NCBI GenBank assembly: GCA_012730105.1
Contig: JAAYBJ010000003.1
Location: forward strand, 13,450 to 77,449
Direction: 5' to 3'
DNA: 64,000 nucleotides
Source: Candidatus Hydrogenedentota bacterium
Lineage (GTDB): Bacteria; Hydrogenedentota; Hydrogenedentia; Hydrogenedentales; CAITNO01
In this document: piece after piece, positions 10,009 to 56,418 of the stretch
How positions within the stretch are numbered: the first letter of the stretch is position 1
Layout of the letters: each line of letters opens with the position of its first letter
Made by a program: the position numbers and the translations under genes
Notes under the pieces: model-generated
Told to the model about the DNA's origin: nothing
Database searches by the model: none
What the model saw: the letters and a program-made list of their open reading frames with translations, nothing else

Positions 10009-10149
10009 GAATGCACTCCTTCTCTTTTTGCGGTTATGGGCCGCGCGTTCACTCACCCAAAAGATAATTCCACACTGCCTTTTTGATCGGACAGATCCGA
10101 CCGATCTGACTGATCACCTTATTTATCGATTCAATAAAGCCCAAAGGGC

Positions 10150-10192: not shown

Positions 10193-13100
10193 CTAGCGGC
10201 GCTTGCGCAGCGAGGCGACACCGGCGAGCGCGGAGGCGGCGGCTGCCAAGAGCAGGCCGAAGGCGCCCGCAACGGGCACACCGGAAGTGACGATGAGCGC
10301 CACTTCATTGGTGTCCACCGAACTCGACGCATCACTCACGCTGCACTTGTACGCCCCGGTATCCGTGAACTCGGCGCTTTCGATGACATAGATCGCCGCA
10401 TCCGGCGCATCCGGGATCACTTCGCCATTCTTCGTCCAGATGTAATGAAGTTCCCCGGCGCTGCAATTTTCAGACAACGGGGCGGCGGTGAAGGTCGAGG
10501 TGCCGCCCGGCGTTACCGGGTTAACGTCCACCGTCAGTTCATAAGCCAGCTCGCAGTCTTCGGGCTTCACCACCACGGTGCGCGCCGTCGCAACCGAATT
10601 CGCGGAGCTGTCACTGACCGTGTAGGTGAGCACATACGTGGCGACTTCATTTGTATTGGCCACGTCACCGTCGATAACGATGGCGCCGGACAGGTCGCCT
10701 TCGCATTCGTCCCACGCCTCGGCACCGGCTTCCACATAGAGGCTGCCGTCGGTGAGGATCACCGGGTTGTCGCCCAGCAGCGCGATGGACGGAGCCGTAG
10801 TATCCGCGACGGTCACCTCGCGCTCCGCGTTGGCAGTATTGCCGGCGCCGTCGGAAACGCTGTAGGTTACGATCTGCAGGCCGAGGACGGCGGTATTGGC
10901 GCCCTCGCCAATGACGATGGCACTGGTCAAGTCGCCTTCACAGACATCCGCCGCTGTCGCGCCGGCTTCTTCATAGATGTCGACGTTGCATTCCAACTGC
11001 AGTACGGCTTCGCCCAGCAGTTCAATCACCGGCGCGGCTGTGTCGGCCACCGTTACGGTCCGGGTGACTGTGGCCGCATTGCCCGCGGCGTCCTCGGCGT
11101 CGTAAGAAACGATATAGGCGTCGGGCACAGCTGTATTCACCAGGTCATCCCCGGTAATAATTACCGGCACAGAACCGTCTACGTTGTCTTCCGCGGTGGC
11201 GCCTGCTTCAATGAAGATGTCCGTATTGCATTCGAGCGTTTCATCGGAGCCGTTCATGGTAATCACAGGCGCTTCGCCGATGGCGCCGCCAAGATCGGAA
11301 CCTTCATTGTCGCGGATGAAGTTGCCCGCCGAATCTTCGACGGAGAAGGGCGTTACTGTAATCACAATATCGCCGCCGTTGAACATTTCATCGGGACGCA
11401 CCCAAACCAGACGGTATTCGGTGCCGCTCACCGTTTCCACACTGCTGGGATTGGCGGACAAGGTGCCGATGCCGGAACCGGAAACCGTGTAGTTGCCGGG
11501 AACATCCATGCCGATACCGCCCGTCATGTCCTTGTTGTAAGTCACCACGACAGTCAATTCGCTTTCCACTTGGACCAGCACGATATCCGGTTGTGAGGTA
11601 TCGAGCACGATCACCGTGCGGGTTACCTGCACCGCGTCGTTGCCCTGGGCGTCGGCAACATCATAAGTGACCGTGTAGGTGTCAGGAGTATTGGTGTCCA
11701 CCGGATTCACCGTGACAATGCTGCCGGTCAGGTCAACAGCGCCGCAACTGTCAGCGGCGGTGGCGCCAGCATCGGTGTAGACACTGAACATGTCCACGTA
11801 CACAACCGAGTCGCCTAGCAGGGTAATCACCGGCAGGGTGGTATCCACCACATGCACCGTGCGCGTCACCTGGGTCGCGGCATTAAGGGCCGTATCGCTG
11901 ACATCATAGGTGACCGTATAGTCGCCGACAACATCCACGTCCACCGGATTGACCGTAGAAATAGAACCGGTCAACTCACCGTCGCACACGTCATCAGCGG
12001 TCGCACCGGCATCGGTGTAACTGGTACTGCATTCCACCGTTACCTCCGCATCACCCACCAAGGTGATGACCGGCGCCGTGGTATCCACCACGTTGACCTG
12101 GCGCACAACCGGTATCGCGGCGTTACCCGCGGCATCAGATACGGTGTAGGTCACCGTGTAATTGCCGGGCACGGCCGTATCAACAGTGCTGACCGCGTTC
12201 GGGGTCAATGGCCCGTCGCAGTTATCATTCGCGGTGGCGCCAGCATCTGTGTAGGTGGCGCCGCATTCGACGGTCACCGGGCTCACGCCACTCATCGCAA
12301 TAACCGGCAGAACATCGTCCACCACCGTTACAGTGGCGTTGCACGATGCCAAATTACCCGCCCCGTCCCGCACATTCAACACTGCAGATACCGACGGCAT
12401 GTCGGCGCACGTAAAGGTCCGGGTTGCCGCACCGTCAATCAGCCACTGGGTGATGCCGCAGTTGTCCGTGCTCCCGCCGTCAATGGCATTGGCATTAATC
12501 GTGGGCGAACTCAAGTTCACTGTGATGTTCTTGCACACCGCGACCGGGTTGGTCGTGTCCGTAATGGTTAAGGTGGTATTGCAGGTGGCGGTAAGCCCGG
12601 CCGTATCCGTCACGGTGATGGTCACGGTTTGCGTACCCGTCACCATTGTACCGGCCGGGGGATTCTGGGCCACACTGGCGACACCACAATTATCCGCATA
12701 CACGCCGGTCGGGAGGAAGTTGGGCATGACCGCCTGGCAGTTGGCGTCGCCGACCGCCGACTGGGGCGGCGGGCAAACCGAAATCACCGGCGGCGTCACA
12801 TCCACCACCGTCACTACAGGACCGCAGGGCACTGCATTGCCACCCACGTCCGTTACCGTGATTTGAATCGGGATGGGGCCGAGCGGCAGAAGCGTGCCCG
12901 CGGCCGGGAATTGGGTAATACTCGCGATGCCGCAGTTGTCCGTCGCGGTTACCAGCGCGGCCAGGTTCGGCGCCGGCGCCACGCACGCGGCATTAGCGTT
13001 CAGTGTCTGATTGCCCGGGCAGAAAGTGATGACCGGGGCGATCGGGTCGTTCACGGTCACCGTGGCGTTGCACGTTGCCGTGCGGCCGATTCGATCCGTT

Positions 13101-14497
13101 ATGGTCAAGGTCACCGTCTTGCTCGGGATATCGGCGCTGCCGAAAGTGGTCTGAGAGGCAATACGCTTATAGATGCCCGCCTCGGCGATGCTGCCGCCGT
13201 CAATGTTGGCCGCTGTCATGGTGCCTGCACAACTGGCATCCAGGTTCACGGTGTAGGCCGCACACACGGCCGACGGCCCGTTCGCGCTGTATTCATACGC
13301 GCCCATATCACGCGCGCCGCCAAGCGGACGCGGGACCAGGCGAATGTCCTCAGTGATGGCCGAACTACCGGTATTCAAACAGGGCGCGCCGGTGATCTGA
13401 TAGGGGAACGGCGCGGCGCCGGAGAAGTTCGGGAGTGCATTGATATTGCCCGTGCCCGGATAGAGGCCGCCGTCAATATCGCTATAGGTACAGGTCAGGT
13501 TCTTTACGGCGCCGGTGATGGCGGCATTTACAATACCGACATTCCCTGTGTTGCCATAGGAGATGGCAGAAAGGACCGAGCCGGCCGTCGCGGGCAGGGT
13601 GCCCACGGTCACGTTAAAGATACCACCGCTGGTAAGACCATGATTCGGGTTGCCGGGCACAGCCGCACCCAAGCCCACGGTATTGGCCGTGATGGTGCAA
13701 TGAATCACTTGCGGCGTGGAAAGATTGATGAACAGGCCGCCGCCGCCTCGGGCCGGATTGCTCTGCCAGTCTAGGTTACGCGTGGCCGTGTTGCCGTCAA
13801 TCACGCAGTTGATGTACTGGGCGGCCGCCGCATCGCCCGAGATGCCTTCGTTCGCCACACCGCCGCCGCTGACGCTGGCGGTATTGCCGTAAATGCGGCA
13901 GTTGGCGATGACCGGGTTGGACCGCCAGTTGTAGATGCCGCCGCCGCGATAGGCATGATACACGCCCGATACGCCCGCGGCGTTACCGCCCGTAATCTGA
14001 AACCCGTCGAGTCTTGAACCCACCGTGGGGGCGGCGCCTTTGCCGAACACCACCACGTGATAGGCGGGACTGCCCGCGCGGGACGTGGCGCCGTTGATGA
14101 CGGTAACATTGATGCCGGGCGCGCGTTGGTTCAGGAGGGTTTCCTGCTGGCCCGTGCCGCCGCGCCATCCTTCAAACCCGCCATACACGGCGACGTTGTC
14201 CTTCATGACCAGCGAGCCGGCATAGGCGGTCGGGCCGCCCCACAATTCCGTGCGCGCTTCATTGTAGACCACGCCGCCCGGCGCACCGGCGACCCACACC
14301 TGGCCGCCGCCCGCGGCGAACATGGCGTCAATGGCGGGCTGAATCGTCGTAAAGGCGTTCTGCCACGACGTGCCGTTGTTCGCGCCCGTGGCGGATTTGT
14401 CCACGAATCTGACCTGCGCGTCAGCGTCTACTGCGGCAAAAAACGTTACCACAATAGCGCATAGGAAAACAGATAAAGACAATCGAGAGGGTTTCAT
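10193..14497 (-). CDS. Giant (1434-aa) secreted adhesin-like protein: N-terminal right-handed beta-helix (pectin-lyase fold) domain, about 10 Ig-like (DUF5011-type) repeats, and a C-terminal GVPVAG-TM-LRKRR anchor
   Basis: Signal peptide MKPSRLSLSVFLCAIVVTFFAAVDADA; TAAGGAG RBS. Beta-helix repeats (NCRIYGNTASVSGGGV, NCVIDGNTA). Repeated GATAxDxCDGxLT Ig-like modules. The C-terminal Ig-like domain and hydrophobic/basic tail are shared with the 7885..10008 product. Confidence 0.85.
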   Translation of the reverse strand: MKPSRLSLSVFLCAIVVTFFAAVDADAQVRFVDKSATGANNGTSWQNAFTTIQPAIDAMFAAGGGQVWVAGAPGGVVYNEARTELWGGPTAYAGSLVMKDNVAVYGGFEGWRGGTGQQETLLNQRAPGINVTVINGATSRAGSPAYHVVVFGKGAAPTVGSRLDGFQITGGNAAGVSGVYHAYRGGGIYNWRSNPVIANCRIYGNTASVSGGGVANEGISGDAAAAQYINCVIDGNTATRNLDWQSNPARGGGGLFINLSTPQVIHCTITANTVGLGAAVPGNPNHGLTSGGIFNVTVGTLPATAGSVLSAISYGNTGNVGIVNAAITGAVKNLTCTYSDIDGGLYPGTGNINALPNFSGAAPFPYQITGAPCLNTGSSAITEDIRLVPRPLGGARDMGAYEYSANGPSAVCAAYTVNLDASCAGTMTAANIDGGSIAEAGIYKRIASQTTFGSADIPSKTVTLTITDRIGRTATCNATVTVNDPIAPVITFCPGNQTLNANAACVAPAPNLAALVTATDNCGIASITQFPAAGTLLPLGPIPIQITVTDVGGNAVPCGPVVTVVDVTPPVISVCPPPQSAVGDANCQAVMPNFLPTGVYADNCGVASVAQNPPAGTMVTGTQTVTITVTDTAGLTATCNTTLTITDTTNPVAVCKNITVNLSSPTINANAIDGGSTDNCGITQWLIDGAATRTFTCADMPSVSAVLNVRDGAGNLASCNATVTVVDDVLPVIAMSGVSPVTVECGATYTDAGATANDNCDGPLTPNAVSTVDTAVPGNYTVTYTVSDAAGNAAIPVVRQVNVVDTTAPVITLVGDAEVTVECSTSYTDAGATADDVCDGELTGSISTVNPVDVDVVGDYTVTYDVSDTALNAATQVTRTVHVVDTTLPVITLLGDSVVYVDMFSVYTDAGATAADSCGAVDLTGSIVTVNPVDTNTPDTYTVTYDVADAQGNDAVQVTRTVIVLDTSQPDIVLVQVESELTVVVTYNKDMTGGIGMDVPGNYTVSGSGIGTLSANPSSVETVSGTEYRLVWVRPDEMFNGGDIVITVTPFSVEDSAGNFIRDNEGSDLGGAIGEAPVITMNGSDETLECNTDIFIEAGATAEDNVDGSVPVIITGDDLVNTAVPDAYIVSYDAEDAAGNAATVTRTVTVADTAAPVIELLGEAVLQLECNVDIYEEAGATAADVCEGDLTSAIVIGEGANTAVLGLQIVTYSVSDGAGNTANAEREVTVADTTAPSIALLGDNPVILTDGSLYVEAGAEAWDECEGDLSGAIVIDGDVANTNEVATYVLTYTVSDSSANSVATARTVVVKPEDCELAYELTVDVNPVTPGGTSTFTAAPLSENCSAGELHYIWTKNGEVIPDAPDAAIYVIESAEFTDTGAYKCSVSDASSSVDTNEVALIVTSGVPVAGAFGLLLAAAASALAGVASLRKRR

Positions 14498-14858
14498 CAC
14501 GTAGACTCCTTACGTTGTTGTTCCATCGAAGCACACCGCCAACGTGCAGACCGGGTACAGGACTACCGATGTAAAGATATCCTGTTGCCTCAACCCTTCA
14601 CTGTCGTGGCTCCGACGCCTCACATTACTTGTTTCTTATAAATACGACACCCAAGAAGAAACGCCTTGCGTTTCCATATTTTAGTAAAAATCCCAGACTA
14701 CCTGAATAACGCTTACACTACAGGGTAAATCAAATTTCACGAAAAGTCAAGAACTTTAAACGAGGCGCTTGTTTTTTCTCGGGCTAAATGCGATATACAT
14801 CACATCCAGATCTGACTGATATAGACACGGTCCATCAAACACGCATTATTCACAGTAT

Positions 14859-39718: not shown

Positions 39719-39857
39719 CACTCGCGTGGGATCCGGAAATCCCGGTTCGTCCCGCCACTTGTGGGCCCTGTTTTTTGTATGGTACAGTGAGGCTGCCGAT
39801 TTCACGTTGGTCCTGCGCAAAGACGGGGCCGGTGTTCCTGGCGATAAAGGTGCCCAG

Positions 39858-42197
39858 ATGAAATCCCAACTGATTCCTTCTCTGCTTCTGGCAATACTTG
39901 CGGCGGCATGTCCCTCTATGGGCACGGCGGATGACCAGCCTGAAAACCGGCCGGACGCCCGGCACCACCAGCGCCTGGTGGAAGACGACTGGCAGCTGCA
40001 GGAAGCGCGTCAGGGCCGGAACGCGGGAAGCCTGGAGGCGGTGCGCGCCGCCATGGTCAGGGCGGAAGCCCTGTACCAGGATCTTTCCGGGGTTGCCGGG
40101 ATGGAAGACTGCCGGGAACAAATGGAACTGTTCGCCCGACAAGTGGGCCGCGCCGAAGCCATGGAAGACAGCGAACGCCTGGCGCTTTATTACGCCCTGC
40201 GCTGGTTCACCCGCGAACTGGCGTTGCAGAATCCGCTGATCGCCGACACACCCCTGGTGTTCATGCAACGGCGCCGTTTCATCTGCCAGATGCTGCATGA
40301 ATATCTCGGCTATTATTATGATTACGGGGATATTGAAGGGGGCGGTGTCTTCATCCTCGAACAGCCCGGCAAGTCCTTTGCCGCGCGCGAACTGGTCCGC
40401 GGACGACTGCCACGGGGCAATTACACTACCCTGGCGCTTTCTTATGACGCAAAAACCATCCACTTTGCATTCGCGCCCCGCGCACCCGGGGAAAAACCGG
40501 ATTTCTATTCCGGTGAACGCCGCTGTTTTCATTTGTACAGCATGGACAGCGACGGAAACAACCTGCGGCCGCTGACGGAAGGACCTGACGACGATTTTGA
40601 TCCCTGCCCGCTGCCGGACGGCGGCATCGCGTTCATGTCCACCCGACGGGGCGGTTTCACGCGCTGCAACAACCCCTGGGAACCGCTGCCCGCCCACACG
40701 CTGCACCGGCTGGACCCGGACGGCGCAGTCCGTTGCCTGTCTTATCATGAGACCAGCGAGTGGCATCCGCAGGTGCTCCATGACGGGCGGATCGCCTACA
40801 TCCGATGGGACTATGTGGACCGTTCGGCGGCGCATTTCCACGGCATCTGGGCCACCAACCCCGACGGGACCGAAACGCGCCAGATTTTCGGCAATTATAC
40901 GCAACGGATCAACGCCTGTTATCAGCCGCATCCCGTGCCGGGTTCCCGCCGTCTGGCCTTTCTTGCCGGGGCCCATCACGCCAATGTCGGAGGATCACTT
41001 GTACTATTCGACCCCGCCAAAGCCGCCTTCGACCCCGCGACCGGGGAAGACGATTTCGGTTCCCTTGAACCGTTAACGCCGGAGGTATGTTTCGCGGAGA
41101 CGCCGGACGTGTGGCCTGAATCCTATTTTCACAGCCCCTGGCCGCTTTCAGAAGGCTATTTCCTCATCAGTTTCTCTTTTGATCCCCTGCCAGGCATGAG
41201 CGCCCGTACGAAAGAAGACACCGAAACGGGCATCTATCTGTGGGACCGGTTTGGAAACCTGGAACTCCTGTACCGTGAGCCCGGCATCTCCTGCATGTAT
41301 CCACTCCCCTTGAAACCACGGCCGATACCGCCCGCGCTGCCAAGCCGGCTTGATCCAACACTGGGCGATTCAGGAGAGTTTTATCTCGCCAATGTGTATG
41401 AAAGCCATTTACCATTCCCTAAAGACCGGCCGATCCACGGCTTGCATATTTATCAACTCCTGCCCAAAAGTGAAACGCATGTGGCCAACCAGCCGCGTAT
41501 CGGGTATGCCAATGCGGAATCCGCCCGGATGCTGCTGGGTTTCGTGCCGGTCGAAAAGGATGGTTCCGCCCGTTTCAAGGCGCCCGCCGGGAAACCGCTC
41601 GCCTTTCAGGCCGTGGATGAATCCGGCCGAGCGGTGCAGGGTATGCGCAGCGCCGTGTACCTGCAGCCGGGCGAACGCCGGAGTTGTGTGGGCTGCCATG
41701 AATCTCCGGAACGATCCGGAACTGTTCCCTTAGGAAAACAGATCGCCTTCGGCCGCGGGCCTTCCGAGATTACGCCCGGCCCGGACGGCGTCATGCCGTG
41801 GAGTTTTCCCAGGCTGGTGCAACCGATTCTGGACACGCACTGCGTCCGCTGCCATGGCGAAGCGGGCAATGCAAGACCATGCCTTGAGGCGAAGGTACAG
41901 GACGAATTTACTGAGGCTTACACCGTGCTGAAACCTTACGCGCGCTGGTACGAATGGGGCGGGGAAAGCATCAGCATAATTGTAACCCGTCCGGGCGAAA
42001 TGCCCGCCGACGTGAGTCCATTGACCGCCATACTGAATGATGCCAATCACGCGTCCGAACTGCGCCTGCCCGAGGCCGCGCAGCGAATCCTGTACTTGTG
42101 GCTGGACGGTAACGCGGCGTTTTACGGAACCTACTCGCCGACCGAGCGGCTCGCCCAGTTTGAAGGCAGTAAGGTGCCGCCTCCCGCGCTGCAGTGA
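39858..42197 (+). CDS. Secreted beta-propeller protein with C-terminal Planctomycete-type cytochrome c (PSCyt1-like) region, double CXXCH
   Basis: Signal peptide MKSQLIPSLLLAILAAAC. TolB/HzsA-like propeller segments. CVGCHESP and FPRLVQPILDTHCVRCHGEAGN, the latter matching the PSCyt1 consensus (V/I)xPILxxxCxxCHG. Confidence 0.8.
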   Translation: MKSQLIPSLLLAILAAACPSMGTADDQPENRPDARHHQRLVEDDWQLQEARQGRNAGSLEAVRAAMVRAEALYQDLSGVAGMEDCREQMELFARQVGRAEAMEDSERLALYYALRWFTRELALQNPLIADTPLVFMQRRRFICQMLHEYLGYYYDYGDIEGGGVFILEQPGKSFAARELVRGRLPRGNYTTLALSYDAKTIHFAFAPRAPGEKPDFYSGERRCFHLYSMDSDGNNLRPLTEGPDDDFDPCPLPDGGIAFMSTRRGGFTRCNNPWEPLPAHTLHRLDPDGAVRCLSYHETSEWHPQVLHDGRIAYIRWDYVDRSAAHFHGIWATNPDGTETRQIFGNYTQRINACYQPHPVPGSRRLAFLAGAHHANVGGSLVLFDPAKAAFDPATGEDDFGSLEPLTPEVCFAETPDVWPESYFHSPWPLSEGYFLISFSFDPLPGMSARTKEDTETGIYLWDRFGNLELLYREPGISCMYPLPLKPRPIPPALPSRLDPTLGDSGEFYLANVYESHLPFPKDRPIHGLHIYQLLPKSETHVANQPRIGYANAESARMLLGFVPVEKDGSARFKAPAGKPLAFQAVDESGRAVQGMRSAVYLQPGERRSCVGCHESPERSGTVPLGKQIAFGRGPSEITPGPDGVMPWSFPRLVQPILDTHCVRCHGEAGNARPCLEAKVQDEFTEAYTVLKPYARWYEWGGESISIIVTRPGEMPADVSPLTAILNDANHASELRLPEAAQRILYLWLDGNAAFYGTYSPTERLAQFEGSKVPPPALQ

Positions 42198-43131: not shown

Positions 43132-44943
43132 ATGATGAAGAAAAATGTGTTTATCTGCGTGTTGATTCTGGCGATTACAGGTCCGGCCTTTGCCGTGCAT
43201 ACCCCGGTACCGGATATGGATTCCTGTCCACCAACAGTGGACGAATACGGCACACCCATCAACTGGAACTTTGTTCCGCTGCCCCTGTTCAATATCAATG
43301 TGCTTGGCAGTACTGTAAATTTTACACCCATTGCCGGACAAGTGGACTTCTGTGCCTATACGGACATCATCTTTTGTTCCCTGGGACCTGTGGGGGATTT
43401 GGTACCTGAGGTAATGGCTTTTGCCAACCTGGTGCAATGCAACGGATTTAAACGGATTTACGAATGGACCTGTCCCTGCACAAGTACGGTACAAACAGGC
43501 GTGGTGCCGGACGGTGAATGTGTCACTTATGTTGAAGGAGAGACTTCGGAAGGGGAGATCGCATGTCAGCAAGAGTGGGTGCGGGGCAGTCTGGTCGAAA
43601 GTATCCCCGTGCACATGGATATCAATGGTCCTATTGACTTACAGGCGGAACTGCCAGTCACCGGCAACGGCATTCCGGACGGCCAGTATGAGCTTGGAAT
43701 TCTTGCGGCCATTTACAATGACGATACCCATCCCCTGCATGCAACCGTGGTTGCCGCCTATCAGGCGAACTATAAGGCGGTCAAAGATTTAATTGTGGAT
43801 GCCCTTGCCGCCGCGAATTTAAAAAATGACAAAGACCTTCGCCCGATTGTACAATCCGTCGCGCCCTATCTGGTAAGGGCTTTAAGCTCGATTCTGGCCG
43901 GCTTTGCCACTATGGCTGATCCCCAAACTAATATGGCGCTCGACCAGTTGCTTTTGCTGCTGGCGGAAATTGGTATTGCCCCGCCCGAGGGCGGCATAGC
44001 CGGGATTGCGACAGGTATTCCCGAACTGGGGCCGGAAGGCGACGCGGACGGCGGCGGCGCCACCAACCGTCAGGAGTATGAATACTTTGTAACAGTACTC
44101 GGCTATGGTCCGGCCGAGTACGTGGCCGCCGCTCTTGATCCCGCACAGGAACCGCCCGTGGAGAATGAAGGCGAAACTGAAACAGAAGGCGAAGGCGAAG
44201 CGGTGCCTGAAGGGGAAGGCGAAATCGTCGCCGAAGGTGAAGTGTCGTCCGAAGGCGAGGGCGAAGGGATGAGTGAAGGCGAAGCCCCATACGAAGGTGA
44301 ACCCTCCGGGGAAGGCGAGTTTGAATCTGAAGGCGAGATACCGGCCGAAGGGGAAATCGTTGTAGAAGGCGAGGGTGAAGCCGCTGCTGAAGGTGAAATC
44401 GTTGACGAAGGCGAGGGTGAAGCCGCTGCTGAAGGCGAAATCATTGAAGAAGGCGAGGGTGAAGCCGCTGCTGAAGGCGAAATCGTTGAAGAAGGCGAGG
44501 GTGAAACCGCTGCTGAAGGCGAAATCATTGAAGAAGGCGAGGGTGAAGCCGCTGCTGAAGGCGAAATCGTTGAAGAAGGCGAGGGCGAAGCGCCTGCAGA
44601 AGGTGAAGGCGAAGCGCCTGCAGAAGGTGAAGGCGAAGCGCCTTCAGAAGGTGAGGGTGAAATCGTTGCCGAAGGAGAAGGAGAAGCACTTGCAGAAGGA
44701 GAAGGTGAAGTCATTGCCGAAGGAGAAGGAGAAGCACTTGCAGAAGGAGAAGGTGAAGTCATTGCCGAAGGCGAAGGAGAAGCACCTGCAGAAGGTGAAG
44801 GCGAAGACGAGACTTCCAGCTGCTGCGGCACCTCTGGGAAAGACATGAACATCAGGAAACTCATGGACCGCACCATCGGTGATTGGTTATTAATCGGCAT
44901 GAGTCTGTTGGGATTGACGGCATTCTCCCTTGTCCGTAAATAA
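43132..44943 (+). CDS. Secreted acidic-repeat protein A: signal peptide, ~320-aa unique domain, ~215 aa of EGEGExxA-type tandem repeats, Cys-rich/GDWLLIG C-terminal anchor module
   Basis: Perfect GAAGGAGG RBS. Signal peptide [20 protein letters not shown]. Repeats run from about residue 340. C-terminus [42 protein letters not shown]. Confidence 0.85.
44160..44810 (+). repeat. Coding tandem repeats (24-bp basic period, 42-bp super-period) encoding [12 protein letters not shown](V/I)(E/D) units
   Basis: Direct reading. Generates frame-artefact ORFs on both strands (SPSPS... and KAKSLKK...). Confidence 0.8.
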
Positions 44944-44967
44944 ACTGTTTCATGACACAATAATGAA

Positions 44968-45333: not shown

Positions 45334-45362
45334 TTGACATAAATTTGAATAAACTGTATATT
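45334..45362 (+). promoter_or_regulatory. Sigma70-consensus-like promoter for gene B (TTGACA-N17-TATATT)
   Basis: Exact -35 TTGACA, a 17-nt spacer, and -10 TATATT about 75 nt upstream of the ATG at 45441. Lies in a 500-bp, lower-GC intergenic region. Confidence 0.5.
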
Positions 45363-45440: not shown

Positions 45441-48400
45441 ATGAAAAAGATACTGGTAAGTGTTTTGGGTCTTGCGATCTGCCTGCTGCCGATGGCGGTA
45501 TTTGCCGCTCCCGGTGATGTGCCCATGCCGGATACGGTCCTGGAGGCTGCCGTTGAAGCGGAAATCGGCGATGACGGGGTCAGCGGCGCTGTGGACAGCA
45601 CCCTGCTGCTGAACCTCGTCCAATTGGGCGGGCTCGATGATTTTCCCAACCAACTGGTCACCGGCGTAACGGACTTAACGGGGCTGGAAGCGGCAACAAA
45701 TCTCGAGTTTTTGCTGTTGTTAAACGGTGATATCGACAGTCTGGAACCAGTTGCGGATTTGCCCGCCTTAACCGGCCTGGCCCTGTTCGATATGGGCGTT
45801 GAGGACGCCGATGTGGCGGAACTTGCCGCCGGAACCGCTGAACCTGTTGCGTTACTGATTTCAAACCTGGGAACAGGAACTCCGAACGACCTGACCACCA
45901 CGGGTATTAATAGTATTGGTCAGATCGGCAGTATTGTGGAACTGTCTCTGTCGGGCTTGGGAAATGAATTTGACATCTCAGGTTTAAGCACCTTGTCGCT
46001 GGGGGATTTGGGTTTTGGTCTTGGACTGTCCATGGACGGCAATACCATTGTGGACGGGTTTGAAGTTATCGCCGGGTTTACAGGCCTGACGGCGCTTTCA
46101 CTTGGCCAAACAGGCATTACCAGTGCAGACTTGGACCTCGTTGACTGGTCCCTGATGACCAGCCTGGGGGAATTGCTGCTGCCCTTCAATGCCATTACGG
46201 ATATTTCCATGTTGCTGGATCTCGGAGCTCCGTCCGGCGCAATTATAGACCTTGCCGGCAACCCCCTTGATAATGCCGCTGTATGTACGCATATCCCCGC
46301 GTTAGTAACTGCCGGTTATACCGTTTTGGATGGCCAGGTTCTCCCCTGTGGTTCCCCAGTACTTACCCTGACTCTGAACGGTGTAGGCGAAATCAATCCC
46401 GCGCCAGGTGAGTACCGCTATGAGGTCGGTACGGAAGTGTTTCTAAATGCCAACCAGATCAGCGGCGGTGGTGTTTTTTCCCATTGGACTGGTGACGTGG
46501 CGGATCCTAGCAACCCGAACACCAGCATCGTCATGAATGCAGACGAGGCTGTGGAGGCGGTGTTTGTGGATGGCGACTATACATTGACGATCCAGTACGC
46601 CGGGGACGGAACGGGCGTTACCTCTCCCCCGGCAGGCGTATGGGCCTATCAGGACGGGGCTTCCGTTGGCTTGAATTTTACCCCCGACCCGGGCAATTTC
46701 TGGGGCGGCTGGCAGGGGGATCTTACGGGCATTATCGCCAATACGATCATCATGGACAGCGACAAAACGGTTACGGCCGTATTCGGCGCCACAGGTTATG
46801 ATTTGATCATCGGCGTAAATGATACAGATCTGGGCTTTACCTTTCCGGTGATGGGCACGTATCCCCTTGCAACGGGAACCGTGGTGGATATCAACGCGAT
46901 TGTGGACTTCTCCGAGCCAACCTATATTTTCGGTGAATGGACCGGTGATATCGGCACGGCCGATCCTGCCAACCCAGAACTGCAGGTCACCATGGACCAG
47001 GCGCGTACCGTCACCGCCAACTTCAGAAAACCTGAGTTAACCATCAGCATCACTGGGGAAGGGACAACGAATCCCGTACCGGGAGTATATCCGTATGACA
47101 ACGGCGCCTTTGCCGCTGTGACTGCGACACCCGCCGATGGATGGTTTTTCGTCGGTTGGCAAGGTGATGCGGAAGGGGCAGGTGAATTAAATATTTTGAT
47201 GGACGGCGACAAGGCGGTAACAGCGGTATTCGAACAGATTCCCGTCTATACGCTGACCATTAATGCCGCTGATGGTGGTTCCACTAATCCGCCAGCGGGA
47301 AGTTATCCCTATGATGAAGGTGCCGTTGTGGAAATAACTGCCACACCGGAGACAGGATGGCAATTCCTTCGCTGGGAGGGCGACGTTACCAGTACCGACC
47401 CCTCCACTTTGGTTAATATGGATGGCGATAAAACAGTAACGCCCGTTTTTGAAATTTTATCCTACGATGTCACCATTAATGTTGTAGGCAATGGAACGAC
47501 CTTGCCTGCCGCAGGTACCTCTCCATGGGATTACGGGTCGGTAGTGATGATCACGGCCACTCCTGCAACTGGATGGCAATTTGTACGCTGGGAAGGCGAC
47601 TTTTCTGTTCCGAATCCGGAAGTGCCCAACTTCGCTGAAGTAGAAGTGGACGGTCCGAAAACCGTAACCGCGGTGTTCGAACAGATTACCTATACACTGA
47701 CTATTTCAGTGGCAGGCGATGGCACTACAGATCCCCCTACAGGCGGGGTTTACACTTCAGGTACGCCTGTAACGATTACAGCCCAGCCTGCGGATGGTTG
47801 GAACTTTGCCAGATGGGAAGGGGATGTTTCCGGTACGGAATCCACACTATCGTTCACTATGGATAGCGACATATCCGTTACGGCGGTCTTTGAAGAGCAA
47901 ATAATTGAAGGCGAGGGTGAAACCCCTGTTGAAGGCGAAGGCGAAGCCCCTGTTGAGGGTGAAGGTGAAGAACCCATTGAAGGCGAAGGCGAAGAGCCCG
48001 TCGAAGGCGAAGGTGAAGAACCCGTCGAAGGCGAAGGCGAAGAGCCCGTCGAAGGCGAAGGTGAAGAACCCGTCGAAGGCGAAGGTGAAGAACCCGTCGA
48101 AGGCGAAGGTGAAGAACCTGTCGAAGGCGAAGGCGAAGAACCTGTCGAAGGCGAAGGCGAAGAACCTGTCGAAGGCGAAGGTGAAGAACCTGTCGAAGGC
48201 GAAGGTGAAGAACCTGTCGAAGGCGAAGGTGAAGAACCTGTCGAAGGCGAAGGTGAAGAACCTGTCGAAGGTGAAGGTGAAGCCCCTGTCGAAGGCGAAG
48301 GTGAAGAACCTGTCGAAGGCGAAGGTGAAGAACCTGTCGAAGGTGAAGGTGAAGCCCCTGTCGAAGGTGAAGGCGAAGAGCCTGTCGAAGGCGAAGGCGA

Positions 48401-48689
48401 AGAACCTGTCGAAGGCGAAGGTGAAGCCCCCGTTGAGGGCGAAGGTGAAGTAACCGCCGAAGGCGAGGGCGAAGAACCTGTCGAAGGTGAAGGCGAAGAG
48501 CCTGTCGAAGGCGAGGGTGAAACCCCCGTTGAGGGCGAAGGCGAGGGCGAAGAAGAAGCCTGCGGTTGCTGCCAGCAGAATGAAAAAGCCCTTACCATAA
48601 AAGAAATGGTAGAAAAGAGTTTGGGCGACTGGCTGTTAATCGGCGTAAGCCTTCTTGGACTTACGGCTTTGGCCGGTATGCGCAAATAA
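45441..48689 (+). CDS. Secreted acidic-repeat protein B, internalin-like: signal peptide, leucine-rich repeats, about 8 InlB-B-repeat (Listeria-Bacteroides repeat)-type domains, about 27 copies of EGEGEEPV, Cys-rich/GDWLLIG C-terminal anchor
   Basis: AAAGGGA RBS. Signal peptide [25 protein letters not shown]-like LxxLxxLxLxxNxI segments. Repeated YTLTIxxxGxGTxxPxxGxYxYxxGxxVxLxAxPxxGWxFxxWxGD modules. C-terminus [43 protein letters not shown]. Confidence 0.85.
47905..48555 (+). repeat. Near-perfect 24-bp coding tandem repeats (GAAGGCGAAGGTGAAGAACCTGTC x about 27) encoding EGEGEEPV
   Basis: Direct reading. Copies differ mostly at synonymous third positions (gag/gaa, ccc/cct, gtc/gtt). Confidence 0.85.
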
Positions 48690-48705
48690 TCTTCCATAAT
48701 TAATT

Positions 48706-48746
48706 GCGGGGCCGCTTCAGCAATGAAGCGGCCCCGTTTGCTTTAT
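48706..48746 (+). terminator. Rho-independent terminator after gene B
   Basis: 13-bp GC-rich stem CGGGGCCGCTTCA/TGAAGCGGCCCCG with loop GCAA, followed by TTTGCTTTAT. Confidence 0.7.
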
Positions 48747-55125: not shown

Positions 55126-56418
55126 GTGACACCACTGAACAGTAACGAAGCGGCCCGGGTCGTACAAATACGTGCGCAATCCGCATCAGCCTTGTCCGAT
55201 AACCTGATGCCCTTCTGGGCGAACAATACCTGGGATGAGGAATACGGCGGTTTCCTGACCCGGCTGGACCGGCGGGGCCAGCGACTGGACGACTTGGAAA
55301 AAGTACTGATGATGCAGGTGCGCATGATCCACAGCCTGTCGGCGGCACACCGTCACGGCCTGCGCGACCGCGGTTACCTGGAGTTGGCGGACCGGGGCTT
55401 TGACTACCTCATCCATACCTTTTGGGACAACACAAACGGCGGCTTGTATTTTTCCGTCAACCGCGATGGAAACCCCCGCTCCACGCGCAAGAATACGGAT
55501 TTCCACGCGTATGCCTTGACCGGGCTTTCAGAATATTACCTGGCGTCCGGACAGTCCGAAGCGCTCCAGTGGGCATGCCGCGTGTTTGACATGCTGCTGG
55601 CAAGCGCGGCTGACCGCGACCTGGGTTTTATCGAAGACTTTGACGGTAAAGACTGGCCGGCGTTAAACGCCGAACAGATGGGCCTGGGCGGCCGGACCGG
55701 CATCAAGACCATCGACATGCATACCAATGTGCTTGAGGGGATGACCTACCTGGCGCGGGCATCAGGCGAGCAAAAACACAGGGAAGCGCTGGACGCCCTG
55801 CTTGACCTCATCTGCCGGAAAGGCATTCACCCCAGCCCCGGATGCACCATCACCGCCTTTGACGCGGGCTGGTATCCTGTGAGTGACGCGGCAGGACGGA
55901 TGACCACCTCCTATGGGTTGAACGTGGAACTTGCCTGGCTAATTTGGGAGGCCATGGATGTACTGGGAAAAACAGAGGATTTTTATCACCAGATCGCGCT
56001 GGGCTTGATTGACCACGCACTGGCCTTCGGCTTTGACCAGGAACGGGGCGGCCTCGCGGCGAATGGGCCGATTACCGGCTTCATTCTGGATGCGGGCGAA
56101 TTGGGCGAAGCGCGCCTGCATAAGTCATGGTGGGCCCAGGCGGAATTATTGAACGCCCTGTGCGGCGCTTTTGCACGTACCGGGAACCGGAAGTATTTTG
56201 ACGCCCTGGTCAAAACCTTCGACTGGGTCTACCGCTTTCAGATCGACCACGAATGCGGCGACTGGTACCAGGATACCCGCTGGGATACCGGCGAACCCCT
56301 CACCACCGACAAAGGCCGGGAATTCAAGACTTCCTTTCATGCGGGACGGGCGCTGATTCGGCTCAGCGAAGCCTTAAGAAAATGGGGGGACTCCGCTACT
56401 TCTCAAGGGAGACCATAA
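55126..56418 (+). CDS. N-acylglucosamine 2-epimerase (AGE)-family sugar epimerase/isomerase
   Basis: (alpha/alpha)6 barrel-type sequence with repeated aromatic/His/Glu positions characteristic of AGE, cellobiose 2-epimerase and YihS. GTG start. Confidence 0.8.
   Translation: MTPLNSNEAARVVQIRAQSASALSDNLMPFWANNTWDEEYGGFLTRLDRRGQRLDDLEKVLMMQVRMIHSLSAAHRHGLRDRGYLELADRGFDYLIHTFWDNTNGGLYFSVNRDGNPRSTRKNTDFHAYALTGLSEYYLASGQSEALQWACRVFDMLLASAADRDLGFIEDFDGKDWPALNAEQMGLGGRTGIKTIDMHTNVLEGMTYLARASGEQKHREALDALLDLICRKGIHPSPGCTITAFDAGWYPVSDAAGRMTTSYGLNVELAWLIWEAMDVLGKTEDFYHQIALGLIDHALAFGFDQERGGLAANGPITGFILDAGELGEARLHKSWWAQAELLNALCGAFARTGNRKYFDALVKTFDWVYRFQIDHECGDWYQDTRWDTGEPLTTDKGREFKTSFHAGRALIRLSEALRKWGDSATSQGRP

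What the first reader, a model, noticed from the sequence alone, without database searches (positions are those of the whole stretch)
45441..47904. Internalin-like architecture (LRR plus InlB B-repeat domains) in a Gram-negative, high-GC organism
Residues about 50-290 of protein B show leucine-rich-repeat periodicity (…[42 protein letters not shown]…). About 8 consecutive ~85-aa modules follow, with the Listeria-Bacteroides repeat / InlB-B-repeat signature (YTLTIxxxGxGTxxPxxGxYxYxxGxxVxLxAxPxxGWxFxxWxGD…KTVTAVF). This LRR plus B-repeat combination is classic for Firmicute internalins. Finding it fused to an acidic repeat tract and a novel anchor suggests a host/particle-binding adhesin built by domain shuffling.
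Basis: partly seen in the sequence, partly recalled or inferred. Interest (0 to 1): 0.5.

Follow-up and report, generated by a model that had tools for sequence, protein, structure and literature searches.

The report
LRR-tipped repeat-stalk surface protein, Hydrogenedentota
This gene from an uncultured Hydrogenedentota bacterium encodes a surface protein with a leucine-rich-repeat head on a stalk of seven divergent InlB-B-repeat domains; both parts are common in environmental microbes, so it resembles Listeria internalins without being one.

Summary
The ORF at 45441..48689 (+) encodes 1082 aa.

- **Stalk:** residues 305-823 hold seven, not eight, tandem modules of about 74 aa, not 85. They match Pfam PF18998 Flg_new_2 at 211 bits.
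- **Not a Listeria-type internalin:** it has no Ig-like inter-repeat domain, no Internalin_N match, no canonical Flg_new match, and no LPXTG or GW anchor.
- **Not a Firmicute speciality:** PF18998 arrays occur in at least 825 proteins across many bacterial and archaeal phyla. The same LRR-plus-stalk design recurs in Hydrogenedentota MAGs with different C-terminal modules.
- **Source:** a Candidatus Hydrogenedentes MAG, with no evidence of host association.
- **Most likely function:** a fibrillar-adhesin-like surface protein with an LRR binding tip, a B-repeat stalk, a polyacidic tether and a C-terminal membrane tail.

Two more interesting points lie at the edges of the finding. The LRR tip is mosaic relative to a near-identical orthologue. 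The Cys-cluster/GDWLLIG tail matches no curated sorting-signal model.

The parts
45334..45362 (+). Promoter-like site upstream of gene B (TTGACA, 17 nt spacer, TATATT; 11 of 12 matches).
   Evidence: Consensus scan. The 120 nt upstream of the start codon are 119/120 identical in the orthologous contig L023.
45441..48689 (+). Gene B, the complete CDS (1082 aa plus stop).
   Evidence: ORF list. Conserved homologues.
45441..45509 (+). Signal peptide, residues 1-23 ([22 protein letters not shown]|AP).
   Evidence: Read directly from the sequence. The n-h-c layout and an A-x-A-type cleavage site are conserved in homologues. No signal-peptide predictor was run.
45510..45650 (+). N-terminal cap of the LRR domain, residues 24-70 ([23 protein letters not shown]...).
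   Evidence: Helix at model residues 9-19. The motif is invariant across the family and aligns with the 'IPDDALRTAI' cap of the ordinary LRR protein P0003. Pfam Internalin_N is not matched.
45651..46271 (+). Eight irregular leucine-rich repeats, residues 71-277.
46272..46352 (+). LRR C-cap, residues 278-304 ([27 protein letters not shown]). It holds invariant Cys282 and the conserved 'PC' at 302-303. It sits where internalins have the Ig-like inter-repeat domain.
   Evidence: Helix plus strand in the model. Invariant columns C282 and P302. No LRR_adjacent hit.
46353..46574 (+). B-repeat 1 (Flg_new_2), residues 305-378.
46575..46802 (+). B-repeat 2, residues 379-454.
46803..47030 (+). B-repeat 3, residues 455-530. 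This is the most divergent unit.
47031..47246 (+). B-repeat 4, residues 531-602.
47247..47462 (+). B-repeat 5, residues 603-674.
47463..47684 (+). B-repeat 6, residues 675-748.
47685..47909 (+). B-repeat 7, residues 749-823.
   Evidence: Best Pfam stretch at residues 751-819. Also.
47910..48560 (+). Polyacidic tract, residues 824-1040. The unit is (EGEGEEPV)n. Net charge is -102, with no Lys or Arg.
   Evidence: TRF finds a 24-nt unit x 25.6 copies at 89% matches, 47907-48521. Composition.
48561..48686 (+). C-terminal tail, residues 1041-1082. It has a Cys cluster (CGCC), an 18-aa segment (probably amphipathic), the motif LGDWLLIG, a hydrophobic helix, and a basic end (MRK).
   Evidence: Sequence. 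No NCBIfam match, and in Pfam only a noise-level hit (UL135, E = 3.3, 7.1 bits). The same module occurs on unrelated proteins in 14 metagenome loci.
48706..48737 (+). Terminator-like hairpin (14-bp stem, 10 G-C pairs) directly after the stop codon.
43132..44943 (+). Neighbouring gene A (603 aa; NLV42906.1, 'hypothetical protein'). It has a different, unassigned N-terminal domain but the same polyacidic tract and the same Cys-cluster/GDWLLIG tail.

Best explanation
Gene B most likely encodes a secreted, cell-surface, fibrillar-adhesin-like protein of an uncultured Candidatus Hydrogenedentota bacterium.

- **Export:** a Sec signal peptide exports the protein (inferred).
- **Binding tip:** a capped solenoid of eight irregular LRRs sits at the far end. 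The fold is shown; binding is inferred from what LRR domains do.
- **Stalk:** seven tandem Flg_new_2 (divergent InlB-B-repeat) domains hold the tip away from the cell. Family membership is shown; the beta-grasp-like fold and the stalk role are inferred from InlB and from the fibrillar-adhesin literature.
- **Tether:** a 217-residue (EGEGEEPV)n tract with a charge of about -100 acts as an extended, self-repelling tether (inferred).
- **Anchor:** the tail (Cys cluster, GDWLLIG hydrophobic helix, basic end) either anchors the protein in a membrane or is a sorting signal cleaved by an unidentified enzyme (inferred).
- **Ligand:** unknown. Given a free-living, polysaccharide-degrading lineage, particles, polymers or other cells are more likely targets than an animal host.
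- **Variation:** strain-level recombination in the LRR tip suggests variable binding specificity.
For: - **LRR fold:**
- **Seven PF18998 domains:**
- **InlB layout and B-repeat fold:** InlB consists of an internalin domain, then a B repeat, then GW domains. Its B repeat resembles a beta-grasp fold (PMC8900821).
- **Stalk role:** Flg_new domains are treated as stalk domains of fibrillar adhesins (PMC9210967) and as adhesin-like proteins in archaea (PMC9723798).
- **Conserved head-plus-stalk unit:** P0006, P0007, P0008, P0009, P0010, P0012 and P0017, and loci L001-L005 in Hydrogenedentota MAGs, all have the same N-terminal LRR followed by 4-11 B-repeats and varied C-terminal surface or attachment modules.
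- **Mosaic tip:** against orthologue P0006 the upstream DNA is 119/120 identical and the stalk is 91-96% identical (dN/dS about 0.1). LRR1-5 are 53% identical and LRR8 plus C-cap 57%, with saturated dS. In these segments B is closer to other alleles (P0001, P0002).
- **Tail module:** it is shared with neighbour A and with unrelated passenger domains in 14 metagenome loci.
- **Own transcription unit:** a promoter-like site and a terminator-like hairpin flank the gene.
- **Source organism:**
Against: - No ligand, localisation or expression data exist.
- Pfam LRR models are below threshold.
- The B-repeat fold was not modelled with confidence. The first AF2 run gave pLDDT of about 35 there. The repeat profile finds no solved structure by sequence.
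- If the tail is a plain inner-membrane anchor in a diderm cell, how the head crosses an outer membrane is unexplained.
- No sorting enzyme was found in the window or next to tail-bearing genes.
- The extreme acidity (ectodomain net charge about -200, and no Lys or Arg in the LRR domain) could point to cation or mineral binding rather than specific adhesion.
Confidence: 0.6

Rival explanations
1. It is a scaffold or docking protein of a cell-surface polymer-degrading assembly, in the manner of a cellulosome. The LRR head would recruit enzymes or substrate rather than mediate cell adhesion.
For: Family members with the same head and stalk end in a cohesin domain (P0008). Others (P0010, P0012, P0017, L005) end in a dockerin- or EF-hand-like 'DxDGDxxIxLxELLRxIQFYN' motif plus DUF4397. 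The window is rich in glycoside-hydrolase-type genes: GH127, GH95-like, GHL6 and GlcNAc 2-epimerase.
Against: Protein B itself has no cohesin or dockerin module. None of the glycoside-hydrolase-type genes lies next to A or B; the nearest (GlcNAc 2-epimerase, 55126..56418) starts about 6.4 kb downstream. Gene B appears to be its own transcription unit.
Confidence: 0.17
2. It is a polyanionic envelope or matrix protein. Its main role would be charge-based: binding cations or minerals, hydrating the surface, or building a repulsive coat. The LRR and repeats would be merely structural.
For: The ectodomain has a net charge of about -200, no Lys or Arg in the 281-aa LRR domain, and a 217-aa tract that is 47% Asp plus Glu. 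The neighbour A, with an unrelated head, carries the same kind of tract. Tail-bearing proteins in metagenomes also carry EGE-rich tracts.
Against: Several close relatives with the same head and stalk lack the acidic tract entirely. The tract therefore travels with the tail module, not with the head. The mosaic, fast-diverging LRR tip fits specific recognition better than bulk charge.
Confidence: 0.12
3. It is a true Listeria-type internalin, acquired from Firmicutes and used to bind or invade eukaryotic host cells.
For: The best sequence and structure matches of the head are Listeria internalins. The LRR-then-B-repeat order is as in InlB.
Against: It has no Ig-like inter-repeat domain, no Internalin_N match, no canonical Flg_new match and no LPXTG or GW anchor. 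Identity to internalins in the structural alignments is only 16-28%. The nearest relatives are all Hydrogenedentota or environmental sequences. Gene GC (54.6%) is close to the window's (57.3%). The source is an uncultured environmental MAG.
Confidence: 0.03

Closest known systems
Listeria monocytogenes InlB and the internalin family (InlA, InlC2, InlF, InlH)
   Different: The LRRs are irregular (22-31 aa). A small helix-strand C-cap with a conserved Cys pair replaces the Ig-like inter-repeat region. There are seven divergent (PF18998) repeats rather than one to four canonical ones. There are no GW, LPXTG or WxL anchors. The organism is an environmental Hydrogenedentota bacterium, not a Firmicute pathogen.
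'InlB B-repeat-containing proteins' / TIGR02543-family repeat proteins of environmental bacteria and archaea (Pfam PF18998 Flg_new_2)
   Same: It carries tandem arrays of the same roughly 73-aa domain with the signature 'G.Y.Y..G..V.ItA.P..GW.F..W.GD....m..dktVtAvF'. It scores 211 bits against a cut-off of 23.6. Hundreds of such arrays are fused to varied heads.
   Different: This clade combines the array with an N-terminal LRR head. This particular member adds a polyacidic tract and an unclassified tail.
Fibrillar adhesins (adhesive tip, repeated stalk domains, cell anchor; Monzon et al., PMC9210967)
   Same: The overall logic and polarity match: a putative binding domain at the N-terminal tip, a repeated stalk and a C-terminal anchor. 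Flg_new is one of the recognised stalk domains.
   Different: That class was defined mainly in Firmicutes and Actinobacteria with LPXTG anchors. Here the anchor is different and adhesion is untested.
Hydrogenedentota LRR plus 11 B-repeat proteins (P0010, P0012, P0017; loci L001-L003)
   Same: They have a homologous head (41-47% identity) and the same stalk domain type, and they come from the same phylum.
   Different: They are about 1600 aa long with 11 repeats. They end in a dockerin-like motif plus DUF4397 instead of an acidic tract plus GDWLLIG tail.
Tripartite C-terminal sorting signals (PEP-CTERM, MYXO-CTERM, JDVT-CTERM, CGP-CTERM, Synerg-CTERM; Haft, bioRxiv 10.1101/2023.06.07.544157)
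   Same: The tail has a short conserved motif (GDW) followed by a hydrophobic helix and a basic cluster. It has invariant Cys residues, and it is shared by proteins with unrelated passenger domains.
   Different: No curated model matches. The Cys cluster lies about 20 residues upstream of the helix rather than within the signature motif. No cognate protease was identified.

Membership tests
Listeria-type internalin family | N-terminal signal peptide | tested here: met
   Residues 1-23 ([22 protein letters not shown]|AP) show a basic n-region, a hydrophobic core and an A-x-A-like cleavage site. The layout is conserved in homologues. This rests on inspection only; no predictor was run.
Listeria-type internalin family | Helical N-terminal cap (Pfam Internalin_N, PF12354) | tested here: not met
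   There is no PF12354 hit at E <= 1, whereas the true internalin P0162 scores 29.9 bits. A different, conserved helical cap motif is present instead.
Listeria-type internalin family | Regular 22-residue LRRs forming a curved solenoid | tested here: met
Listeria-type internalin family | Ig-like inter-repeat region fused to the last LRR (LRR_adjacent, PF08191) | tested here: not met
   There is no PF08191 hit. The LRR C-cap ends at residue 304 and the first B-repeat starts at 305, so an 80-100-aa domain cannot fit. P0162 scores 26.9 bits on this model.
Listeria-type internalin family | Cell attachment by LPXTG, GW or WxL modules | tested here: not met
   No such Pfam or NCBIfam hits were found. 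The C-terminus is a Cys-cluster/GDWLLIG hydrophobic tail.
Canonical InlB B-repeat (Pfam Flg_new PF09479 / TIGR02543 List_Bact_rpt) | A match to the family model above its threshold | tested here: inconclusive
   PF09479 is not reported at E <= 1. TIGR02543 scores 22.1 against a cut-off of 20.95, but no single stretch passes on its own. hhalign to a genuine Flg_new domain aligns 22 columns around 'P..GW.F..W' at probability 13%. Many relatives carry both PF09479 and PF18998 hits.
Pfam PF18998 Flg_new_2 (divergent InlB B-repeat) | A match above the gathering score, in tandem copies | tested here: met
   The score is 211 bits against 23.6, E = 1.7e-63, with 7 stretches. The seven units were delimited independently.
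Pfam PF18998 Flg_new_2 (divergent InlB B-repeat) | Beta-grasp-like fold, as in the InlB B repeat | not tested
Both structure-prediction jobs went on the head. The repeat profile finds no PDB sequence.
LRR superfamily | Pfam LRR model above the gathering score | tested here: not met
   LRR_4 scores 13.8 bits against 27. Orthologue P0006 has only a 'faint' LRR_4 hit.
LRR superfamily | Right-handed beta/alpha solenoid with a parallel beta-sheet on the concave face | tested here: met
Fibrillar adhesin | Distal binding domain, tandem stalk domains and a cell anchor at the opposite end | tested here: met
   The architecture was established, and from the tail sequence.
Fibrillar adhesin | Demonstrated surface location and binding | not testable with these tools
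   This needs experiment.
Tripartite C-terminal protein-sorting signal | Signature motif, then hydrophobic helix, then basic cluster at the extreme C-terminus, shared by unrelated proteins | tested here: met
   A and B share 20 invariant positions. Fourteen metagenome loci carry the same module on different passengers.
Tripartite C-terminal protein-sorting signal | A match to a described CTERM model, or a cognate sorting enzyme | tested here: not met
   There are no NCBIfam hits at E <= 10. The same library does report weak hits for another short tail, so the search was sensitive enough to show them. No polytopic protease candidate lies in the window. Tail-bearing loci share no conserved neighbour.

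The most novel reading that the evidence does not exclude
The most novel reading concerns the module that travels with the head and stalk, not the LRR/B-repeat combination. The polyacidic EGE tract, CGCC-type Cys cluster, roughly 18-aa spacer, 'LGDWLLIG' helix and basic end may form a previously undescribed C-terminal protein-sorting or anchoring signal. It would be used by Hydrogenedentota and related uncultured bacteria to display many unrelated passenger domains, and would be processed by an unidentified enzyme. Alongside this, the LRR tip of this adhesin family may diversify by cassette-like recombination between alleles while the stalk and promoter stay nearly identical.
Probability: 0.35. 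Interest if true: 0.55.

Novelty: new member of a known kind. Interest (0 to 1): 0.3.

Why it matters
As filed, the finding matters little. It shows that 'internalin-like' layouts are a general way of building bacterial and archaeal surface proteins, not a Firmicute or virulence hallmark. Such calls in environmental MAGs should therefore not be read as evidence of host interaction.

It does give a first structural annotation for a family that GenBank lists as 'hypothetical protein' in Candidatus Hydrogenedentota. This phylum has no cultured representative that I know of (my own knowledge, not checked here), and its cell surface is unknown.

Two side observations could be useful if confirmed. 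An unclassified C-terminal tail shared by unrelated surface proteins could lead to a new sorting pathway. A mosaic LRR tip on a conserved stalk could be a natural example of strain-level variation in binding specificity.

Tried and rejected
- **First AF2 run.** Residues 1-385 with a 4-sequence alignment gave pLDDT 49.7 and was discarded. It was redone with 19 sequences.
- **Solved structure for the repeats.** A profile of the seven repeats finds nothing significant among PDB sequences (best E = 0.3).
- **Direct link to canonical Flg_new.** hhalign gives only probability 13% over 22 columns. The 'InlB B-repeat' label therefore rests on Pfam's PF18998 family definition and on co-occurring PF09479 hits in relatives.
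- **AlphaFold-database fold search.** The library was unavailable.
- **Exact-sequence contig look-ups.** Look-ups for B and A found nothing on record. The source was identified through cluster names instead.
- **Sorting enzyme for the tail.** The window holds no exosortase, rhomboid or CPBP-type candidate. The only polytopic membrane proteins are a TPR protein, a histidine kinase and two ABC-2 permeases. Loci L006-L019 share no conserved neighbour gene.
- **Lipoprotein reading of the signal peptide.** The 'LAIC' motif was rejected as a lipobox because the Cys is not conserved in homologues.
- **Horizontal transfer from Firmicutes.** Rejected on gene composition and on the nearest relatives.
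- **Long ORFs in other frames over the acidic tracts.** These are 44103..44960 (-), 47750..48697 (-), 44375..44848 (+) and 47905..48453 (+). They are by-products of the GAAGGC-type repeat (SPSPS and KAKVK translations), not genes.
Full report
**1. What is at the coordinates**

The finding's range (45441-47904) is the first 821 codons of one ORF, 45441..48689 on the + strand, encoding 1082 aa. A promoter-like site lies at 45334-45362 (11 of 12 consensus matches). A 14-bp-stem terminator-like hairpin at 48706-48737 follows the stop codon directly. The gene therefore looks like its own transcription unit.

Long ORFs in other frames over the 3' part of this gene and of the upstream gene translate as SPSPS or KAKVK. 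They are by-products of a GAAGGC-rich repeat, not genes.

**2. The N-terminal part is a real LRR domain, but curated LRR models miss it**

- Pfam gives LRR_4 only 13.8 bits against a gathering score of 27. NCBIfam gives only noise-level internalin matches.
- phmmer of residues 1-320 against all PDB sequences puts Listeria internalin A first (E = 2.3e-8), followed almost entirely by other internalins.
- An exhaustive phmmer search over 1.8 billion cluster representatives finds 2086 relatives at E <= 1e-3 and 357 at E <= 1e-10.
- A profile of the nine closest heads retrieves 17 proteins. Apart from the two closest relatives (P0001, P0002), all carry standard LRR Pfam families, with E-values down to 3e-32. 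One (P0162) is a genuine internalin with Internalin_N, LRR_adjacent and Flg_new.
- A first AlphaFold run with four sequences was poor (pLDDT 50). A second run on residues 24-304 with 19 sequences gave pLDDT 88.4 and pTM 0.84. It shows a helical cap, a ladder of short beta-strands and a terminal helix-strand cap.
- Foldseek against the PDB returns internalins (InlF, InlC2, InlA, InlB, InlH) at probability 1.0.

The strand spacing (22, 25, 30, 35, 16, 26, 24 and 26 residues) shows about eight irregular repeats between residues 71 and 277. A cap covers residues 24-70. A C-cap covers 278-304 and contains the invariant Cys282 and the conserved Pro-Cys at 302-303.

**3. The repeat array**

Pfam PF18998 (Flg_new_2, 'Divergent InlB B-repeat domain') scores 211 bits (E = 1.7e-63) with seven stretches. 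A self-search seeded with the last unit delimits seven units between residues 305 and 823, with a period of about 74 aa.

The canonical family PF09479 is not reported. TIGR02543 just passes, at 22.1 against 20.95. Profile-to-sequence comparison with a true Flg_new domain aligns only the 'P..GW.F..W' core, 22 columns at probability 13%. The repeat profile finds no solved structure by sequence. The link to InlB's B repeat is thus the one Pfam asserts for PF18998. It is supported indirectly, because many relatives hit both models. I could not test the beta-grasp-like fold described for InlB (PMC8900821).

**4. The rest of the protein**

- Residues 824-1040 are a polyacidic tract. At the DNA level it is a 24-nt unit repeated 25.6 times at 89% matches. 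At the protein level it is (EGEGEEPV)n with net charge -102 and no Lys or Arg.
- The last 42 residues hold a Cys cluster (CGCC), an 18-residue segment, 'LGDWLLIG', a hydrophobic helix and a basic end.
- The whole ectodomain is very acidic, at about -200 net. The 281-residue LRR domain contains no Lys or Arg at all.
- The upstream gene A (43132..44943, 603 aa) has an unrelated, unassigned Cys-rich head. It carries the same kind of acidic tract and the same tail, with 20 invariant positions.

**5. Source and context**

Exact-sequence look-ups identify the window's glutamate dehydrogenase as NLV42889.1. They identify protein A as NLV42906.1 ('hypothetical protein GXY07_00225'). Both are from a MAG labelled Candidatus Hydrogenedentes/Hydrogenedentota, on a 163-kb contig.

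The window is 57.3% GC and gene B 54.6%, so there is no compositional sign of recent transfer. The immediate neighbours are functionally unrelated:
- a PAS histidine kinase;
- an HZS-alpha-like protein;
- a UDG-family glycosylase;
- SufD and SufC;
- a superoxide dismutase;
- a GDSL/DUF1080 protein.

Further out lie several glycoside-hydrolase-type genes and two other large surface proteins.

**6. Relatives**

The closest cluster representatives have the same signal peptide, cap and LRR head, followed by 4-11 Flg_new_2 units. These are P0006, P0007, P0008, P0009, P0010, P0012 and P0017, at 41-66% identity in the head. Their C-termini differ:
- an acidic tract (P0006);
- an Ig domain plus a 'VPLTG'-type hydrophobic tail (P0007);
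- a cohesin plus Cys-rich repeats (P0008);
- a dockerin- or EF-hand-like motif plus DUF4397 (P0010, P0012, P0017).

In GTDB species genomes the head is found in four Hydrogenedentota MAGs and one MAG labelled Nitrospirales. Where the gene is complete it encodes a 1300-1600-aa protein with 10-11 repeats. More distant LRR relatives mostly end in T9SS-type C-terminal domains. The head-plus-stalk unit is thus conserved, and attachment modules have been swapped around it.

**7. How unusual the combination is**

It is not unusual. They come from Hydrogenedentes, Chloroflexi, Bacteroidetes, Zixibacteria, Chitinispirillaceae, Coriobacteriia, Bathyarchaeia and others.

These arrays are fused to many different domains. 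NCBI already names them 'InlB B-repeat-containing protein', and JGI names them 'uncharacterized repeat protein (TIGR02543 family)'.

LRR co-occurrence also appears outside this clade. P0155 has two Flg_new_2 units followed by regular LRRs. P0227 is named 'BspA family leucine-rich repeat surface protein' and carries PF18998.

Flg_new proteins are described as adhesin-like proteins in gut archaea (PMC9723798). They are also described as stalk domains of fibrillar adhesins (PMC9210967).

**8. Membership versus resemblance**

The protein works like InlB in layout: a capped LRR followed by B-repeat-type domains. It fails several defining features of the Listeria internalin family:
- no Internalin_N match;
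- no Ig-like inter-repeat region (no PF08191 hit, and no room between residues 304 and 305);
- no canonical Flg_new match;
- no LPXTG, GW or WxL anchor.

It is a clear member of PF18998 and, by structure, of the LRR superfamily. Its overall plan fits the fibrillar-adhesin concept.

**9. Mechanism**

The best-supported reading (confidence about 0.6) is a surface-displayed, adhesin-like protein. The LRR concave face binds a ligand. The seven repeats form a stalk. The polyanionic, Pro-containing tract acts as an extended tether. The tail anchors or sorts the protein.

Shown: the domain identities, their order, their conservation, and the modular exchange of C-termini. Inferred: export, surface location, the stalk and tether roles, and binding.

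One extra piece of evidence favours a recognition role for the head. It comes from orthologue P0006 (contig L023, JGI 3300038974).
- The 120 nt upstream are 119/120 identical.
- The first 17 residues of the signal peptide are identical.
- The stalk is 91-96% identical, with dN/dS about 0.1.
- LRR1-5 are only 53% identical and LRR8 plus C-cap 57%, with saturated synonymous divergence. LRR6-7 in between are 88% identical.
- In the divergent segments B is closer to other alleles (P0001, P0002) than to P0006.

This is phylogenetic incongruence of the kind expected from recombination. It rests on few sequences and on a crude dN/dS count.

**10. Rivals**

- A cellulosome-like scaffold or docking role draws on the cohesin and dockerin-like modules in relatives and the glycoside-hydrolase-rich window. 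B itself lacks those modules.
- A mainly charge-based envelope or matrix role draws on the extreme acidity. The acidic tract, however, travels with the tail rather than with the head.
- A horizontally acquired host-invasion internalin is contradicted by the missing internalin parts, the relatives, the gene composition and the source.

**11. The tail (outside the finding's range, but relevant to function)**

Neither Pfam nor NCBIfam recognises the tail. NCBIfam does return weak hits for another short tail, so the search was sensitive enough to show them.

A metagenome scan found 14 loci with the same module: an EGE-rich tract, C-G-C-C-K/Q-S, a spacer of about 15-18 aa, 'LGDWLLIG[VM]SL', then basic residues. 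It sits on unrelated passengers, such as 'NCTFTNNTA'-type beta-helix repeats.

This matches the tripartite logic of known sorting signals, four of which have invariant Cys residues (Haft, bioRxiv 10.1101/2023.06.07.544157). Here, though, the Cys cluster lies about 20 residues upstream of the helix. I found no cognate enzyme in the window or beside those loci. It may be a new sorting signal or just a conserved membrane anchor.

**12. Verdict**

It is wrong that this is a Firmicute hallmark surprising in a Gram-negative, and there is no evidence for host binding. The protein is a new, uncharacterised member of known kinds of surface protein. Interest is modest at 0.3, and comes mainly from the unclassified tail module and the mosaic LRR tip.

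Noticed in passing
window 44818..44940 (gene A, residues 563-603) and 48561..48686 (gene B, residues 1041-1082); loci L006-L019: A shared C-terminal module matches no Pfam or NCBIfam model. It consists of an EGE-rich acidic tract, a Cys cluster (CGCC or SCCG), a spacer of about 18 aa, 'LGDWLLIG[VM]SLLGLTA', and a basic end. It recurs on unrelated passenger domains in 14 metagenome contigs. It is a candidate undescribed sorting or anchor signal.
   Followed up: partly
window 7885..10056 (-) and 10193..14500 (-): Two other large surface proteins carry Bact_surface_Ig-like and HYR domains. Both end in a second, different tail: an Ig-like domain, '(V/I)P(V/L)(A/T)G', a hydrophobic helix, then RKRGK or RKRR. 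P0007, a 57%-identical homologue of B's head, has the same tail type. NCBIfam gives only a sub-threshold NPXTG-anchor resemblance (E = 0.03).
   Followed up: partly
window 45651..46352 compared with L023 (JGI 3300038974, Ga0416721_021846): The LRR tip shows mosaic divergence. The promoter region is 119/120 identical and the stalk 91-96% identical. LRR1-5 are 53% identical and LRR8 plus C-cap 57%, with saturated dS. In these segments B is closer to other alleles. This suggests recombination at the binding tip.
   Followed up: partly
window 45510..46352 and the whole ectodomain 45510..48560: The 281-aa LRR domain contains no Lys or Arg (net charge -40). The whole ectodomain has a net charge of about -200. 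The reason for this extreme acidity is unknown.
   Followed up: no
window 43132..44220 (gene A, residues 1-363): The N-terminal domain of protein A (about residues 23-345, with 8 Cys) matches no Pfam or NCBIfam family. GenBank lists it as a hypothetical protein (NLV42906.1).
   Followed up: partly
window 39726..42197 (+): An 823-aa protein matches the hydrazine synthase alpha-subunit middle domain (PF18582, 78 bits). It has CxxCH-type motifs (CVGCHE, CVRCHG) and sits in a non-anammox lineage.
   Followed up: no
L001-L003 and L005; P0008, P0010, P0012, P0017: Homologues with the same LRR head and stalk carry cohesin (P0008), or a dockerin/EF-hand-like 'DxDGDxxIxLxELLRxIQFYN' motif plus DUF4397. 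This hints at cellulosome-like assembly modules in Hydrogenedentota.
   Followed up: partly
window 44103..44960 (-), 47750..48697 (-), 44375..44848 (+), 47905..48453 (+): Long ORFs in alternative frames over the acidic tracts translate as SPSPS- and KAKVK-type sequences. They are artefacts of the GAAGGC-rich 24-nt repeats and should not be annotated as genes.
   Followed up: yes
L005 (CAZMVU010000069.1): This MAG is labelled 'uncultured Nitrospirales bacterium'. It carries a head-plus-10-repeat homologue at 51% identity, closer than those in the Hydrogenedentota MAGs. The cause could be mis-binning or lateral transfer.
   Followed up: no
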